Below are positions 13,840 to 33,417 of a DNA stretch of 52,697 nucleotides, piece after piece. Numbering within the stretch: position 1 is the stretch's first letter; each line of letters begins with the position of its first letter. The position numbers and the translations under genes are program-made. A model generated the notes under the pieces. That model did not search any database and was not told where the DNA came from. It was given only the letters and a program-made list of their open reading frames with translations. The DNA comes from a bacterium (lineage in GTDB: Bacteria > Patescibacteriota > Dojkabacteria > GCA-016699595), in contig CP064982.1 of NCBI GenBank assembly GCA_016699595.1, positions 709,118 to 761,814 on the forward strand. The letters are read 5' to 3'.

Positions 13840-14017
13840 GACCCCGTTTTCTGAATTTTTATTCAGAGGCTTTTTAAGAAATTAAACGGTCTCTGCTGTA
13901 GAAATACAGTATTGCTTGAAAGTAGGTAGCCGTAAGGCTGTCTACAAACAAGCGAGTTCTTTGAAAATTTAAAAGTGCTAAAGTTATTCTTTTGAGTAAT
14001 TTGGATTATTTTCCAAT

Positions 14018-16052: not shown

Positions 16053-16297
16053 TTTCATTCTATAGCATTTGAGTTTCTTGAATGCTATTTATGAAATTTC
16101 GATTTCATAATACGGAGTAGGGTTAATTTCTTTCGAGTGGTTAACCCAATTCCAATGTTCTTTGAAAATTAAATAGAAGGCACAGTTATTACAAAATCTA
16201 GACTAGGATTGAAAAATTCAAAGTTGTGGAATTTGTAATAAATAAAAATTTAATGTTCAATATTTGAATATTATTTTGTTAGGTAATTTTCATCATT

Positions 16298-29407: not shown

Positions 29408-29483
29408 TGCAAAAGCAAAGTTTCTTTGCCACTCTTCTGCTATTCTTCAGAATAAATTCAAACAGTTGAGTCACCTTATTTTT

Positions 29484-30830
29484 ATGAATAATAATTTAGA
29501 TCCAAATTGGATCGAAGAAATTGAGAAATTCCCAACAGCTATAAAGAGGGATACTTTGATCAAGGGAGTAGTAACCGTTGTCGAACCCGGTAGGATACTT
29601 CTTGATGTCAACTATCGTTCAGAAGGTGAGATTTTGGGGCCGGAAATTTTTACTGAAGGATTTAGGGAATATCCTAAAGTAGGTGAAATTGTCCAAATTT
29701 ATGTTATGAATGATGGTGCGTATTCAGGCACACCTCGGCTTTCCATAAAAAAAACTGGAAATGTCAAAGTTTGGGAGAATCTTGAAAAAGCTAGAGAAAA
29801 CGGTACTGAAGTTACCGGTGTTGTGATAGAAGTAAATACTGGAGGATGTATGGTTGCTTTACCAGGAAACATCAAAGGATTTTTGCCTGCATCTCAATTA
29901 GATCAAGCAAGATTTGCTACTCTAAATACAAACAGAAATGATGGAATAAGTATGCAAGATAAAATTCTTGAAATTTTGAGGCCTCTCAAGGGTCAAAAAC
30001 TGAAACTCGGTCTTTTGGAAGCTGATCAAAAAAAGCAAAAAATTCTTCTCTCTGAAAAAATGTTGATGGAATCACATTCTGTTGGTTCGGATGATAGGAA
30101 TTCTTCTAGTGAAATGATTGATGCAGCAAGACTATCACAGCAGAAAACTATTCTTGAAAATTTCAAGGTAGGTGATGTTGTGGAAGCTACGGTAACTGGT
30201 TTTGCTCCTTTCGGTATTTTTGTAAATTCACAAGGTCTTGAAGGTTTGATCCATATATCTCAAATTTCATGGGAGAAAGTTGAAGATGTTTCAAATCTTT
30301 ATAAAATTGGTGACAAAATACAAGTTAAGGTTATAGCTATAGATCAAGCTACTGCAAGAGTTGGCTTCTCTGTCAAAATGTTGGAGAAGGATCCTTGGCA
30401 ATCAATAAAAGAAAAATATAATGTAGGGGATGTGATTGCAGGAAAAATTACGAAAGTAGTTCCTTATGGTGCATTTGTCAAAATTGAGGATGGTGTCAAT
30501 GGATTGATACATAATTCTGAAGTATCTGAAAGTTCAAGTGCAAAGGCAATTGATATTTTGCAAGATGGTCAAGATGTAAGTGCAATTATATTGCATATTT
30601 CTGTGCCAGATAGACAAATAGCACTTTCAATTCGCAATATGATGAAAAAAGAGGTGGAGCAAGTAGGTGCTGAAATTCAAGAAAATGCTAATGCAGACAG
30701 TGGAAACAGCAATATAGATAAATCAGAACTTATAAATAAAGATGAAGATAAGGATGTCAAACCAAAGGTAAGAAGATCAAAGAAGAAGTCGGAGACTGAG
30801 AATATCGACAATGTTGACAATAAGGAATAG
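29484..30830 (+). CDS. rpsA: 30S ribosomal protein S1 (4 S1 domains)
   Basis: GFLPASQL, APFGIFV..GLEGLIHISQISW and VPYGAFVKI.DGVNGLIHNSE. ATG 29484 is preferred over TTG 29466. Confidence 0.92.
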   Translation: MNNNLDPNWIEEIEKFPTAIKRDTLIKGVVTVVEPGRILLDVNYRSEGEILGPEIFTEGFREYPKVGEIVQIYVMNDGAYSGTPRLSIKKTGNVKVWENLEKARENGTEVTGVVIEVNTGGCMVALPGNIKGFLPASQLDQARFATLNTNRNDGISMQDKILEILRPLKGQKLKLGLLEADQKKQKILLSEKMLMESHSVGSDDRNSSSEMIDAARLSQQKTILENFKVGDVVEATVTGFAPFGIFVNSQGLEGLIHISQISWEKVEDVSNLYKIGDKIQVKVIAIDQATARVGFSVKMLEKDPWQSIKEKYNVGDVIAGKITKVVPYGAFVKIEDGVNGLIHNSEVSESSSAKAIDILQDGQDVSAIILHISVPDRQIALSIRNMMKKEVEQVGAEIQENANADSGNSNIDKSELINKDEDKDVKPKVRRSKKKSETENIDNVDNKE

Positions 30831-30842
30831 TTTTGGTATAAT
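30814..30842 (+). promoter_or_regulatory. Perfect-consensus sigma70 promoter embedded in the rpsA 3' end
   Basis: TTGACA (30814-30819)-17-TATAAT (30837-30842) with TGn extended -10. Confidence 0.85.
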
Positions 30843-30847
30843 ACATC

Positions 30848-30970
30848 ATCCTCAGTTTCATCCAGAGTCTGGTTGACAGAAATGCTACTGGATTCTCGGT
30901 GAAGTTGAGGATGGATGATTTTAGTGGGATGCGTTTGGGGCAGTGGCGCATCCCACTAAAGAAATTTTTT
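30848..30970 (+). ncRNA. Candidate structured small RNA or 5' leader (two hairpins), family unrecognised
   Basis: Starts at the predicted TSS. A 13-bp stem pairs 30848-60 with 30900-12 around an inner TCCAG/CTGGA stem. A perfect 14-bp stem pairs 30920-33 with 30947-60, then a T-rich tail. Confidence 0.5.
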
Positions 30971-31002: not shown

Positions 31003-31299
31003 ATGGATCAAATTCAAAACGAAACTCCAATTCAAAAAAGGTCATTTAGAGACATTTATAAAGATCTAATAAAAAGCAAGCAAAGAAAATCTTTTTTCAT
31101 AAATTTGTTTTATTTTCTTTTGACAACCATTATTTTTGTTGTTATAAATTTACTTTATTCCAAGGACTATATATGGTTTGTATATCCAATGTTAGCTGGA
31201 GGTATATCATTAGGAGTTCAGGCTGTAAGTACATTTGTACTTGGTGGTCGAACTGCTGATATATATGCCAATGAAGCTGAACTGCTTACCAATAAATGA
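31003..31299 (+). CDS. 2TM-domain small membrane protein
   Basis: FFINLFYF...VINL...YIWFVYPMLAGGISL matches the 2TM pattern. Confidence 0.7.
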   Translation: MDQIQNETPIQKRSFRDIYKDLIKSKQRKSFFINLFYFLLTTIIFVVINLLYSKDYIWFVYPMLAGGISLGVQAVSTFVLGGRTADIYANEAELLTNK

Positions 31300-31402
31300 T
31301 GTTTGTAGAAACTTTGTGCTTTAAGAAATTATTTTCAACCAACTTTTCTGCTTTTGACTAGTTTCATCTTTTCAAAAATTATTTACATTGATCAAAGTAA
31401 TT

Positions 31403-31822
31403 ATGCTTAGGATAAATCCCCACGTCAATTTTAATGGGCACTGCTTAGAAGCGTCTAATTTTTTAAAGCGGTTTTTGGCGGTGAATTTTCCAATATAATT
31501 TATACGAACGAAATTGACGGTCCTGAAATGTCTGTTGCTCTAGCTGAGAAGGAAAAATAATGCATGTAGTATTATCAATTGACAACGGTTTACTCATAGG
31601 TAATGATGTCCCCGAGCTTTGGGGTAAAGTAAATGAAAGAGAAAGTGTAAGTAAAATTGCAATAAATTTAGAAAGCAAAGAAGAGGCTGAAAGAATGTTT
31701 GATTTACTTTCCGAATGAGGTGAGATAGAAGTACCAATTGGAGATAGCTCTTGAAATTCGTGTTTTGGCATGTTTCAAGATAATATGGAATTGAGTGGAT
31801 TATTGAATATTTTAAAAGTTAA
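31403..31822 (+). pseudogene. VOC/PhnB (glyoxalase-like) pseudogene
   Basis: Reconstructed MLRINPHVNFNGHCLEASNF-(Y)KAVFGGEF...EKIMHVVL...LSE*GEIEVPIGDSS*NSCFGMFQD(K)YGIEWIIE. Three 1-bp deletions and two in-frame TGA codons (31716, 31752). Confidence 0.85.
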
Positions 31823-31881
31823 ACGAAATTAAATTTAATAACAATATTACTAAATATCTATAAATAATTTATAAAATAACT

Positions 31882-33417
31882 ATGCTTACAATCAACGACA
31901 TATCGAAATTAGACGAAGATAATTTATCACAAACTCAAATGAATAATACCACATCATCTGCTATTGATTTTCAATCTTTTCCTACTGATGACAACAAGAC
32001 CGATGAGAAAGATTTCTTGGAAAAGGAAAGTTCAAAATCAAAATCTGGAGTAACCAACAGAAAGAGAAGAACAACAGCTACATCTAGATTTAGCCCAGAA
32101 GAGATGCAGAATACTGATAGTAGATATCAAGAAAGAAAAGAAAAGTTTGATAGAACAAGTGAGACAATGCGAGTCTCAGACCTTGAAGATAAAACACTTT
32201 TGGAACTTAGGAAAGTTGCACAAGATTTGTCTGTTGGGGGTGTTGAAAATTTCGAAAAAAAGGAATTGATATTGAAAATTGTTGAAGAACAAGTAAAGAA
32301 AGGAGGTAATATTTTCGTGAATGGATTTCTAGAAATTGTCAATGATAACTCGCATGGGATACTACACTCAAATTCACTACTACCAGGTGAGAATGATGTA
32401 TATATAAGTTCATCACAGATAAGGAGATTTAACCTACGAAAGGGTGATTTTGTCACTGGGCAAGCAAGAGCAGCAAAGGAAGGAGAAAGATACTTGTCTC
32501 TATTGAAAATAGAAGCAATTGATGGAGTTGATCCAGAAAAATCTTTGGGCAGACCAACTTTTGAAAAACTAACTCCAATATTTCCAGACAAGCAAATCAA
32601 GCTTGAAACTACCAAAGAAATTATCTCTACCAGGATTATTGACTTACTTGCACCTATAGGAAATGGACAAAGAGGCATGATTGTAGCACCTCCAAAATCA
32701 GGGAAAACATTTTTATTGAAAGATATAGCTCTTGGAGTGCGTAAAAATTATCCCGAATATCACTTAATGATAGTCTTGATCGGCGAGAGACCCGAAGAAG
32801 TCACAGACATGAGAAGAACAGTTGAAGGTGCTGAAGTTTTTGCATCGAACTTTGATGAATCCCCCCAAGATCAAGTCAAAGTCGCAGAACTTGCATTAGA
32901 GAGAGCAAAAAGACTAGTTGAGGTTGGTAGAAATGTTGTTATTTTGATGGATTCTTTGACTCGATTAGCAAGAGCTTATAATGTAGCGTTACCTGCTTCT
33001 GGTAGGACACTATCAGGCGGAATGGATCCTATAGCTTTGTATCCTGCGAAAAGATTTTATGGAGCTGCAAGAAACTTTGAAGTAGGTGGTTCACTAACTA
33101 TCTTAGCTACAGCATTGGTTGAAACGGGGTCTAGGATGGATGAAGTTATATTTGAAGAATTCAAAGGAACTGGAAATATGGAACTGAAGTTAAGTAGGGA
33201 TCTCGCTGACAAAAGAGTTTTTCCATCTATTGATATAGAACAATCTGGAACAAGAAATGAAGAACTTCTTTTGGGTCAGGAAGTACTATCTCAAAGCTGG
33301 AGAATTCGAAGAATGATGGAACTTCTAAATAGTAATGAGAAGAATGATGTGATAATTGAAAGAATGAAGAAGACAAAAAACAATACTGAATTTCTTCAAT
33401 CATTAGTGGAAGGCTAA
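31882..33417 (+). CDS. rho: Transcription termination factor Rho with N-terminal extension
   Basis: [59 protein letters not shown] and FKGTGNMEL. Confidence 0.97.

What the first reader, a model, noticed from the sequence alone, without database searches (positions are those of the whole stretch)
30814..30970. Candidate novel small RNA driven by a perfect promoter hidden in the rpsA tail
The best promoter in the window (TTGACA-17-TGnTATAAT) starts within the last rpsA codons. Its predicted TSS (~30848) coincides with the first base of a long imperfect hairpin (13 bp, a 7-nt 3' bulge, 5-6 bp, then an apical TCTG-GTTGA-CAGA). A perfect, GC-rich 14-bp hairpin with a 13-nt G-rich loop follows, then a T-rich tail. 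The segment is GC-rich against AT-rich flanks and has no credible ORF. It lacks SRP (CAGG/GNRA/AGCA), tmRNA, RNase P or known riboswitch signatures that I can recognise. It may be a new ~120 nt sRNA (for example a reduced 6S/SRP analogue) or an attenuator controlling the 2TM membrane protein at 31003.
Basis: partly seen in the sequence, partly recalled or inferred. Interest (0 to 1): 0.62.

Follow-up and report, generated by a model that had tools for sequence, protein, structure and literature searches.

The report
Minimal rho-linked structured RNA gene
Right after the ribosomal protein S1 gene of this tiny uncultured Dojkabacteria (CPR) bacterium lies a real, strongly promoted two-hairpin RNA of about 120 bases; it is the most stripped-down member seen here of an uncatalogued RNA family that this lineage, and some of its phages, keeps next to the transcription-termination gene rho, and its function is still unproven.

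Summary
A perfect TTGACA-17-TGnTATAAT promoter (30814-30842) is the only one in the window and one of 8 perfect promoters in the 762-kb genome. It is followed by two very stable hairpins: P1 (30846-30914) and P2 (30919-30961), then a U-run.

No Rfam family matches. The RNA is not an orphan, though. P2, with the invariant loop GGGGCAGUG, was detected by a covariance model built without this genome. That model hits once per genome in 153 of 201 Dojkabacteria, plus some other Patescibacteria and three phage contigs. The P1 core has a C mismatch and a tandem U.G/G.U. It is shared across the class with strong covariation (14 of 19 pairs show compensatory changes).

Relatives carry the RNA behind a consensus promoter, almost always just upstream of rho on the same strand. 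Here it is the shortest version. It lacks the boxA-like 5' end and the middle hairpin. It sits after rpsA and is separated from rho by a 2TM gene and gene remnants.

The SRP-analogue idea is refuted: this genome and its relatives have no Ffh, no FtsY and no SRP RNA. The most likely role is a promoter-proximal regulatory RNA of the termination system, either a leaky-terminator leader or a stand-alone RNA.

The parts
29466..30830 (+). rpsA (ribosomal protein S1, 454 aa); its last codons contain the -35 box
   Evidence: ORF; S1 domains, Pfam PF00575 E 2.5e-43
30814..30842 (+). Consensus sigma-70-type promoter TTGACA-17-TGgTATAAT (-35 at 30814-30819, TG at 30834-30835, -10 at 30837-30842). The inferred start is about 30848-30850.
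   Evidence: 12/12 with TG. Unique in the window. One of 8 perfect promoters in the genome. Relatives have a TTGACA-17/18-TAtAAT promoter at the equivalent place.
30846..30914 (+). P1 hairpin: lower stem 30846-30862 with 30898-30914; conserved C.C mismatch at 30863/30897; conserved core helix AGAGUCUGGU/ACUGGAUUCU at 30864-30873 with 30887-30896, including a tandem U.G/G.U; 13-nt apical loop at 30874-30886
   Evidence: MFE fold. The core is shared with G001, G002 and G006. In an alignment of 38 P1 arms, 95.8% of cells are paired and 14 of 19 pairs show compensatory changes. Single copy in the genome.
30919..30961 (+). P2 hairpin: stem 30922-30933 with 30947-30958 (plus U-A extension), loop 30934-30946 holding the invariant GGGGCAGUG (30937-30945)
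   Evidence: Covariance model R1, built from 8 relatives without this genome, hits 30920-30964 at 33.7 bits, E 1.5e-8 to 2.8e-9. Stems covary across 14 variants. G.U is the commonest pair at one position, which favours an RNA on the + strand.
30965..30970 (+). U6 run 4-7 nt after P2; a possible weak (leaky) intrinsic terminator tail
   Evidence: Sequence. Not flagged by the simple terminator scan. Relatives range from strong U-tails to none.
31003..31299 (+). 98-aa 2TM-domain membrane protein gene with no convincing promoter of its own; probably reached by read-through
   Evidence: Pfam PF13239 E 2e-11; promoter scans
31388..31830 (+). About 0.45 kb of frame-shifted ORF fragments with in-frame TGA stops (gene remnants); an untranslated stretch between the 2TM gene and rho
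   Evidence: Three-frame translation. No Pfam hit for the longest piece. My impression of a PhnB/VOC-like relic comes from memory and was not confirmed.
31882..33417 (+). rho (511 aa), the conserved downstream partner of this RNA family; here it starts 0.92 kb after the P2 hairpin instead of 0.1-0.6 kb
   Evidence: Pfam Rho_N, Rho_RNA_bind and ATP-synt_ab. rho lies downstream on the same strand in 27-28 of 30 loci, 34 of 42 loci and 4 of 5 loci in relatives.

Best explanation
Segment 30814-30970 is a complete small transcription unit. A consensus promoter, whose -35 box lies in the last rpsA codons, drives a two-hairpin RNA of about 115-125 nt (P1 and P2).

The RNA is the most reduced member seen here of an uncatalogued structured-RNA family of Dojkabacteria. 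The family's full form is: promoter, boxA-like 5' end, P1, a variable middle hairpin, then P2. The P2 hairpin also occurs in some other Patescibacteria classes and in phages.

Most likely mechanism (inferred): it is a promoter-proximal regulatory RNA of the transcription-termination system. P1 and P2 would be recognition modules for a conserved factor, such as Rho, a Nus-type factor or RNA polymerase itself. P2 would also act as a leaky terminator. Polymerases that stop at P2 release a stable small RNA. Polymerases that pass it transcribe the promoter-less 2TM gene and can continue through 0.58 kb of untranslated DNA into rho. In this way the element would set or feed back on rho expression, as the family appears placed to do in nearly all relatives.

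Shown: the promoter, the fold, the strand, covariation, family membership and synteny. Inferred: that it is transcribed, where it ends, which factor binds it, and the regulatory effect.
For: - Promoter quality.
- Fold stability, and a + strand preference through G.U pairs.
- P2 was found by a model built without this genome. That model hits once per genome in 153 of 201 class genomes.
- P1 covaries strongly. P2 stems covary around an invariant loop.
- rho lies downstream on the same strand in 27-28 of 30 loci, 34 of 42 loci and 4 of 5 loci from other classes.
- In family f44, a second covarying hairpin spans the -35 of the rho-proximal promoter. Upstream transcripts must therefore extend past P2 there.
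- In this window there is no strong promoter and no terminator-like site on the + strand between P2 and rho.
- Phage copies sit at the head of an early operon or inside an operon, not beside rho. The module therefore works on whatever lies downstream of it or in trans.
- Precedents: regulation of rho through its leader (the SraL entry in review PMC12360218) and BoxA/Nus-regulated genes (PMC5725501).
Against:
- In most non-f3 relatives a second good promoter (TTGACA-17-TATACT) lies between P2 and rho, and P2 often carries a strong U-tail. The RNA could therefore be a self-contained gene.
- In family f6 the RNA precedes rplJ-rplL and lies about 6 kb from rho on the other strand. In G022 a convergent gene follows it.
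- Family f11 has P1 but no P2.
- This copy lacks the boxA-like element that the genome's own rRNA leaders carry, so Nus-factor loading cannot be its mechanism here.
- No binding factor has been identified.
Confidence: 0.45

Rival explanations
1. Stand-alone, trans-acting small RNA or RNP component. The unit ends at P2. The abundant two-hairpin RNA acts away from its gene, for example as a decoy or partner of a core protein such as Rho. Its position next to rho would be inherited synteny or co-regulation, not cis control.
For: - It has its own stable-RNA-grade promoter.
- It is single-copy and class-wide, like a housekeeping RNA.
- A second promoter lies between P2 and rho in most relatives, and many P2 copies have strong U-tails.
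- It is kept when unlinked from rho (f6 before rplJL; G022 facing a convergent gene).
- Phages carry it without rho.
- The invariant loop and the conserved helix sequence suggest recognition by a macromolecule.
Against: - Synteny with rho is very deep, and the RNA is co-oriented with the downstream gene nearly everywhere.
- Several members, and this one, lack a convincing terminator tail.
- The loop has no complementary target in this genome. The single CACTGCCCC site, at genome position 22486, lies on the non-coding strand of a minus-strand ORF, so that ORF's mRNA carries the loop-sense sequence, not its complement.
Confidence: 0.35
2. Processive antitermination element of the nut/put type. 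The RNA stays with the polymerase that made it, with or without Nus factors, and makes that polymerase resistant to terminators downstream.
For: - Most family members start with a boxA-like GYUCUUUAA, which fits the consensus GYTCTTTAANA of PMC5725501.
- Two conserved hairpins lie directly after a strong promoter.
- In phage contig L068 the whole RNA heads an early operon. L069 combines boxA with a P2-like hairpin.
Against: - This copy, and those of G001 and G002, have no boxA, although the genome's rRNA leaders do (GUUCUUUGAAAA at 13956 and 16157).
- The rRNA leaders carry neither P1 nor P2: each has one hit per genome.
- No N-like protein lies next to the phage copy.
Confidence: 0.15
3. Nothing more than the rpsA terminator region plus a fortuitous promoter-like sequence.
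For: The hairpins lie directly after the rpsA stop codon. P2 plus the U-run resembles a terminator.
Against: - P1 and P2 are conserved with covariation in genomes where the upstream gene is radA, a clp ATPase gene or a phage gene, not rpsA.
- An equivalent consensus promoter is present in all of these.
- A perfect promoter occurs only 8 times in the genome.
Confidence: 0.03
4. A reduced SRP RNA or 6S RNA analogue.
For: No canonical SRP RNA is detectable anywhere in the genome, so an unrecognised one seemed possible.
Against: - No Ffh M domain in the genome.
- No SRP54-type GTPase over the Pfam cut-off in 21 class genomes, and none at E<=1e-10 in 101 phylum genomes, so there is no partner protein.
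- No SRP or 6S Rfam match to the region even at E<=10.
- No GNAR tetraloop or symmetric-loop motifs, and no long helix with a central bubble.
Confidence: 0.02

Closest known systems
Leader-based control of rho: Rho-dependent attenuation in the rho leader of E. coli/Salmonella, and its relief by the sRNA SraL (Silva et al. 2019, as tabulated in review PMC12360218). Autogenous control of rho in B. subtilis is cited from my own knowledge.
   Same: An RNA element upstream of rho and co-oriented with it, placed where it can decide how much transcription reaches the gene for the termination factor.
   Different: The known leaders are unstructured rut-type regions without a conserved hairpin. Here two sequence-invariant hairpins sit behind a dedicated consensus promoter, often with a second promoter before rho. 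In this genome another gene lies in between. Dependence on Rho was not tested.
Phage lambda nut sites, rRNA-operon boxA/boxB/boxC antitermination leaders, and BoxA-regulated genes (PMC5725501)
   Same: Most family members combine a boxA-like GYUCUUUAA at the 5' end with conserved hairpins directly after a strong promoter. Phage copies head early operons.
   Different: This copy has no boxA. P1 and P2 are absent from the genome's own rRNA leaders. No N-like protein or Nus binding has been shown.
HK022 put RNA (a cis-acting, factor-independent antitermination RNA with two stem-loops; from my own knowledge)
   Same: Two conserved stem-loops immediately downstream of a promoter, also carried by phages, and able in principle to act without boxA.
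   Different: No sequence or structural similarity was tested or seen. put is known only in a lambdoid phage, whereas this RNA is a chromosomal, class-wide, single-copy element.
Stand-alone bacterial sRNA genes with a sigma-70 promoter and a Rho-independent terminator
   Same: A promoter-to-hairpin unit of about 120 nt in an intergenic spacer.
   Different: Conservation is class- to phylum-deep, with an invariant loop and a helix conserved in sequence. No target complementarity was found, and the U-tail is inconsistent.

Membership tests
Uncatalogued Dojkabacteria 'rho-upstream' RNA family (P1/P2), as defined by my own alignments | P2 hairpin with loop ..GGGGCAGUR.. closed by a G+C-rich covarying stem | tested here: met
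   Model R1, built without G000, hits window 30920-30964 at 33.7 bits. G000 supplies two compensatory pair swaps.
Uncatalogued Dojkabacteria 'rho-upstream' RNA family (P1/P2) | P1 hairpin core: CC - C mismatch - 3 covarying pairs - GUCUGG...CUGGRY, with a tandem U.G/G.U | tested here: met
   30860-30900 matches all 7 tested pairing positions and is the only such site in the genome. Aligned with 37 relatives in A4.
Uncatalogued Dojkabacteria 'rho-upstream' RNA family (P1/P2) | Own consensus promoter 130-270 nt upstream of the P2 loop | tested here: met
   The promoter starts 123 nt before the loop, the shortest distance in the set.
Uncatalogued Dojkabacteria 'rho-upstream' RNA family (P1/P2) | boxA-like GYUCUUUAA at the 5' end, and a middle hairpin preceded by CUUCGAUAA | tested here: not met
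   Absent from 30843-30920. Also absent in the same-order genomes G001 and G002, so this is a reduced subtype.
Uncatalogued Dojkabacteria 'rho-upstream' RNA family (P1/P2) | rho immediately downstream on the same strand | tested here: inconclusive
   The strand is the same, but rho starts 0.92 kb after the P2 hairpin, with a 2TM gene and gene remnants in between. Family f6 and G022 also break this rule.
Bacterial small SRP RNA (RF00169) | Match to the covariance model, i.e. domain IV motifs | tested here: not met
   No match in the region at E<=10 or anywhere in the genome.
Bacterial small SRP RNA (RF00169) | Partner proteins Ffh (M domain) and FtsY encoded in the genome | tested here: not met
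   PF02978 is absent. PF00448 has nothing over the cut-off in 21 class genomes and nothing at E<=1e-10 in 101 phylum genomes. No SRP-type GTPase was found among P-loop ORFs.
6S RNA (RF00013 and relatives) | Model match; one long helix with a large central bubble, about 150-200 nt | tested here: not met
   No 6S family appears among matches at E<=10. The fold is two separate hairpins totalling about 120 nt.
Intrinsic (Rho-independent) terminator | G+C-rich hairpin immediately followed by a U-tract | tested here: inconclusive
   The hairpin is strong, but the U6 run starts 4-7 nt after the stem and the loop is 13 nt. The scan did not call it. Relatives range from perfect U-tails to A-rich tails.
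nut-type or rrn-type antitermination site | boxA bound by NusB/NusE, plus an adjacent hairpin | tested here: not met
   There is no boxA in this copy, although the genome's rRNA leaders have GUUCUUUGAAAA. Binding cannot be tested with these tools.
Autogenous rho leader attenuator | Rho-dependent termination between the promoter and the rho start codon | not testable with these tools
   Only the geometry is known: same strand, no strong promoter or terminator-like site in between, and 0.58 kb of untranslated sequence before rho.

The most novel reading that the evidence does not exclude
P2 (and P1) form a dedicated, high-affinity recognition RNA for the termination machinery of Patescibacteria, most attractively for Rho itself. 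The chromosomal copy would be an operator or decoy that keeps Rho levels in balance. Phages would carry the same hairpins to blunt Rho during infection. This genome's boxA-less, 120-nt version would define the minimal functional core: the C-mismatch/tandem-GU helix plus the GGGGCAGUG loop.
Probability: 0.2. Interest if true: 0.8.

Novelty: new variant of a known kind. Interest (0 to 1): 0.58.

Why it matters
Rho is the main factor-dependent terminator of bacteria. Almost nothing is known about transcription control in CPR/Patescibacteria.

The RNA is single-copy and driven by one of the best promoters in the genome. It is conserved with covariation across a whole class, and its 3' hairpin is conserved beyond that class. 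It is tied to rho and has been borrowed by phages. These features make it a strong candidate for a lineage-specific regulator of termination.

This window contributes the smallest natural version, with no boxA and no middle hairpin. It narrows down which parts are indispensable: the P1 core helix and the P2 loop. It is also short enough for direct biochemistry.

The by-product may matter more than the RNA, if an independent check confirms it: no Ffh, FtsY or SRP RNA was found in any sampled Patescibacteria genome.

Tried and rejected
- Rfam at gathering level and at E<=10 gave only chance microRNA-like hits.
- A repeat or MITE: rejected, because the segment is single-copy.
- SRP RNA or 6S analogue: rejected. 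A regex hunt for SRP domain IV gave only noise.
- A DNA-level operator or palindrome: rejected. The arms covary while the 'spacer' is invariant, and G.U pairs would be A.C mismatches on the other strand.
- A trans target for the P2 loop: the only perfect complement (genome position 22486) is on the non-coding strand of a minus-strand ORF, so that ORF's mRNA carries the loop-sense sequence, not its complement. No match was found in rRNA.
- A terminator/antiterminator switch: alternative pairings exist in family f3 (GGCACUCCUC with the loop) and between the middle hairpin and the 5' strand of P2. I found no consistent partner across families, and none in this copy.
- An N-like peptide next to the phage copy: not seen.
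- A broader P2 covariance model was not built. MAFFT could not register the variants with different loop lengths.
- A metagenome scan for close relatives of this subtype found nothing.
- Pfam found nothing in the gene remnants before rho.
Full report
**What is in the sequence**

- The -35 box TTGACA (30814-30819) lies in the last codons of rpsA (stop at 30828-30830). It is followed by a 17-nt spacer, a TG at 30834-30835 and the -10 box TATAAT at 30837-30842.
- This is the only perfect match in the 52.7-kb window. The one-mismatch matches lie in front of a tRNA gene and the rRNA operon.
- Only 8 perfect promoters with 16-18-nt spacers exist in the whole 761,814-bp genome.
- The RNA that would start at about 30848 folds into two hairpins with an MFE of -60.9 kcal/mol (z = -7.56; 0 of 200 shuffles fold as well).
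- The opposite strand folds much less well (-45.0 kcal/mol), because the + strand uses many G.U pairs.

**It is not a known family, not a repeat and not an SRP or 6S analogue**

- Rfam 15 gives nothing at gathering thresholds. At E<=10 it gives only chance microRNA-type hits far below their cut-offs.
- The segment is single-copy in the genome.
- The genome does have a tmRNA and an RNase P CR-I motif. It has no SRP RNA match.
- This is not because the SRP RNA is hiding here. The genome has no Ffh M domain.
- No SRP54-type GTPase reaches the Pfam cut-off in 21 genomes of the class, and none reaches E<=1e-10 in 101 genomes of the phylum.
- RF00169 is absent from 61 class genomes and 121 phylum genomes. 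The control genomes all ring.
- With no Ffh or FtsY there is no SRP for this RNA to belong to.

**It has relatives**

- BLASTN against 60 relatives gave weak but consistent hits to the apical part of hairpin 1 (G001, G002, G006) and to hairpin 2 (five genomes of family f3).
- Reading those loci showed the same layout: a TTGACA-17/18-TAtAAT promoter, a long hairpin with the core CCAGAGUCUGG...CUGGAYUCUCGG, and a second hairpin. In the second hairpin the stems differ but the loop GGGGCAGUG is identical.
- I built a covariance model of the second hairpin (P2) from eight relatives, leaving this genome out.
  - It hits 153 of 201 genomes of the class, almost always exactly once per genome.
  - It finds this window at 30920-30964 (33.7 bits, E 1.5e-8).
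- Across 31 distinct sequences, 86.5% of P2 cells are paired and six pairs show double changes. G.U is the commonest pair at one position.
- Fourteen distinct P2 variants show stem swaps around the invariant loop: GGGGUCGG/CCGAUCCC, GAGGUUGG/CCAACCUC, GCCGGCC/GGCCGGC, and GGAUGCG/CGCAUCC in this genome.
- For P1 I extracted 38 instances by their short anchor motifs and joined the two arms with an artificial GAAA linker for counting.
  - 95.8% of cells are paired.
  - 14 of 19 pairs show compensatory changes (187 cells).
  - The covariation score is 0.719 against 0.223 for shuffles, and it collapses when the partner strand is slid.
  - Caveat: instances were chosen with a complementarity filter, so the percentage paired is inflated. 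The compensatory changes are not.
- An invariant C stands opposite a C, A or U (never a G). A tandem U.G/G.U next to a G-C pair is conserved.
- An exact 20-mer of the commonest P1 form occurs in 42 of 185,579 species genomes. All are labelled Candidatus Dojkabacteria, Patescibacteria, or (automatic labels) Saccharibacteria. This also confirms the organism.

**Context in relatives**

- In the first eight relatives the RNA lies between radA and rho.
- rho follows on the same strand in 27-28 of 30 loci fetched with the P2 model and in 34 of 42 loci fetched with the P1 motif.
- rho is present in 193 of 201 class genomes.
- The RNA always has its own near-consensus promoter 130-270 nt before the P2 loop. 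In most families other than f3, a second good promoter (TTGACA-17-TATACT) begins 27-65 nt after the loop, in front of rho.
- Most members start with a boxA-like GUUCUUUAA or GAUCAUUAA. This fits the GYTCTTTAANA consensus of PMC5725501.
- There are informative exceptions.
  - In family f6 the RNA lies between a clp ATPase gene and rplJ-rplL. It is about 6 kb from rho and on the other strand.
  - In G022 it faces a convergent gene.
  - Family f11 has the promoter, boxA and one or two P1 copies, but no P2.
  - Family f16 has P2 with quite different stems.
- Outside the class, the P2 model finds good hits in several other Patescibacteria families. In these, a strong promoter is followed almost at once by P2. 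rho lies downstream in 4 of 5 loci.
- In family f44 a second covarying hairpin spans the -35 of the rho-proximal promoter, so upstream transcripts must run past P2 there.
- Three AT-rich IMG/VR contigs carry P2 without rho.
  - In L068 the whole RNA, with its promoter, heads the leftward early operon (replication initiator). That operon is divergent from a RecT/exonuclease operon.
  - L069 combines boxA with a P2-like hairpin.

**Anatomy of this copy**

- It is the shortest version in my set (about 119 nt from the inferred start to the tail).
- It keeps the P1 core:
  - lower stem 30846-30862 with 30898-30914;
  - C.C mismatch at 30863/30897;
  - helix AGAGUCUGGU/ACUGGAUUCU at 30864-30873 with 30887-30896.
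- It keeps P2 (stem 30922-30933 with 30947-30958; loop UUUGGGGCAGUGG).
- It lacks the boxA-like 5' end, although the genome's rRNA leaders have GUUCUUUGAAAA at 13956 and 16157.
- It also lacks the conserved CGCGUAC loop motif of P1 and the middle hairpin.
- The upstream neighbour is rpsA, not radA.
- Downstream come a 2TM-domain gene (31003-31299, Pfam PF13239), then about 0.45 kb of frame-shifted ORF fragments, then rho at 31882.
- Between P2 and rho the + strand has no strong promoter (the best are 9-10 of 12 matches) and no terminator-like site.
- The U6 run starts 4-7 nt after P2, so termination there is probably inefficient.

**Interpretation**

Firmly established:
- a real, + strand, structured RNA element with a first-rate promoter;
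- membership of a class-wide, single-copy, uncatalogued family;
- a 3' hairpin that is older than the class and that phages also carry.

Inferred: the function. Two readings fit the data almost equally well.

- (a) A promoter-proximal regulatory RNA, acting as a leaky-terminator leader, that controls how much transcription goes on into the downstream genes, normally rho.
  - Favoured by the depth of the rho linkage, the near-universal co-orientation, the missing or weak U-tails in several lineages, the f44 read-through hairpin, the phage copy at the head of an operon, and, in this window, the lack of other promoters for the 2TM gene.
- (b) A self-contained small RNA acting in trans.
  - Favoured by the second promoter before rho, the strong U-tails in many members, and the copies unlinked from rho.

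The invariant loop and the sequence-conserved helix call for a macromolecular partner in either case. I give (a) 0.45 and (b) 0.35. A specifically nut/put-like antitermination mechanism gets 0.15. It is weakened here by the absence of boxA.

**Relation to earlier notes of this scan**

- After I had found the rho link myself, the notes showed that other agents had met the same family in other Dojkabacteria genomes.
- Those notes supplied the boxA lead, the phage lead and the beyond-the-class lead. I re-tested these here.
- This window adds three things: the minimal boxA-less form, the displacement from radA and rho, and the removal of the SRP idea through the absence of Ffh and FtsY.

**Limits**

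- No factor has been identified.
- E-values from my short-calibrated model are rough.
- P1 instances were selected with a pairing filter.

Noticed in passing
whole genome G000; 21 Dojkabacteria and about 100-120 other Patescibacteria genomes: No SRP system was detectable. There is no Ffh M domain (PF02978) in G000. No SRP54-type GTPase (PF00448, i.e. Ffh or FtsY) is over the cut-off in 21 class genomes, and none reaches E<=1e-10 in 101 phylum genomes. No small SRP RNA (RF00169) was found in 61 class and 121 phylum genomes, while all control genomes ring. I found no paper stating this. It needs an independent check.
   Followed up: partly
window 31388-31830: Between the 2TM gene and rho lie frame-shifted ORF fragments in three frames, with two in-frame TGA codons. 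They look like the remains of a small gene. By memory it resembles a PhnB/VOC-type protein, but Pfam gives no hit.
   Followed up: partly
window 13956-13966 and 16157-16167: The boxA-like sequence GUUCUUUGAAAA occurs upstream of both 16S and 23S rRNA. The rRNA operon reads 16S-tRNA-tRNA-5S-23S.
   Followed up: no
L072-L078 (family f6) and L132, L133, L141 (another class): One or two perfect DnaA boxes (TTATCCACA) lie 100-200 nt upstream of the RNA's promoter in two distant lineages. None is found near this window's copy.
   Followed up: no
relatives' loci, e.g. L029, L032, L003, L072-L089, L132-L141: A conserved CTATRGG (N0-2) motif lies directly upstream of the -35 TTGACA of the RNA's promoter in nearly all relatives. 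It may be an extended -35 or UP-like element of very strong Patescibacteria promoters.
   Followed up: no
L080, L082, L118, L122 (family f11), L055, L086, L089: The P1 hairpin is tandemly duplicated in several genomes. In some pairs the second copy is of a different subtype.
   Followed up: no
L132, L133, L141: In family f44 a second hairpin with covarying stems (GCUUGUAC/GUACAAGC, ACUAGUG/CACUAGU, ACUAGAG/CUCUAGU) encloses the -35 box of the rho-proximal promoter. It shares CCCUU with the 3' strand of P2.
   Followed up: no
genome C1:455775 (minus strand), just upstream of the tmRNA gene 455298-455747: A perfect boxA consensus, GTTCTTTAAAA, follows a TTGACA box in front of the tmRNA gene.
   Followed up: no
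window 31120-31148: A one-mismatch promoter match (TTGACA-17-TATAAA) lies inside the 2TM ORF, pointing towards rho.
   Followed up: no
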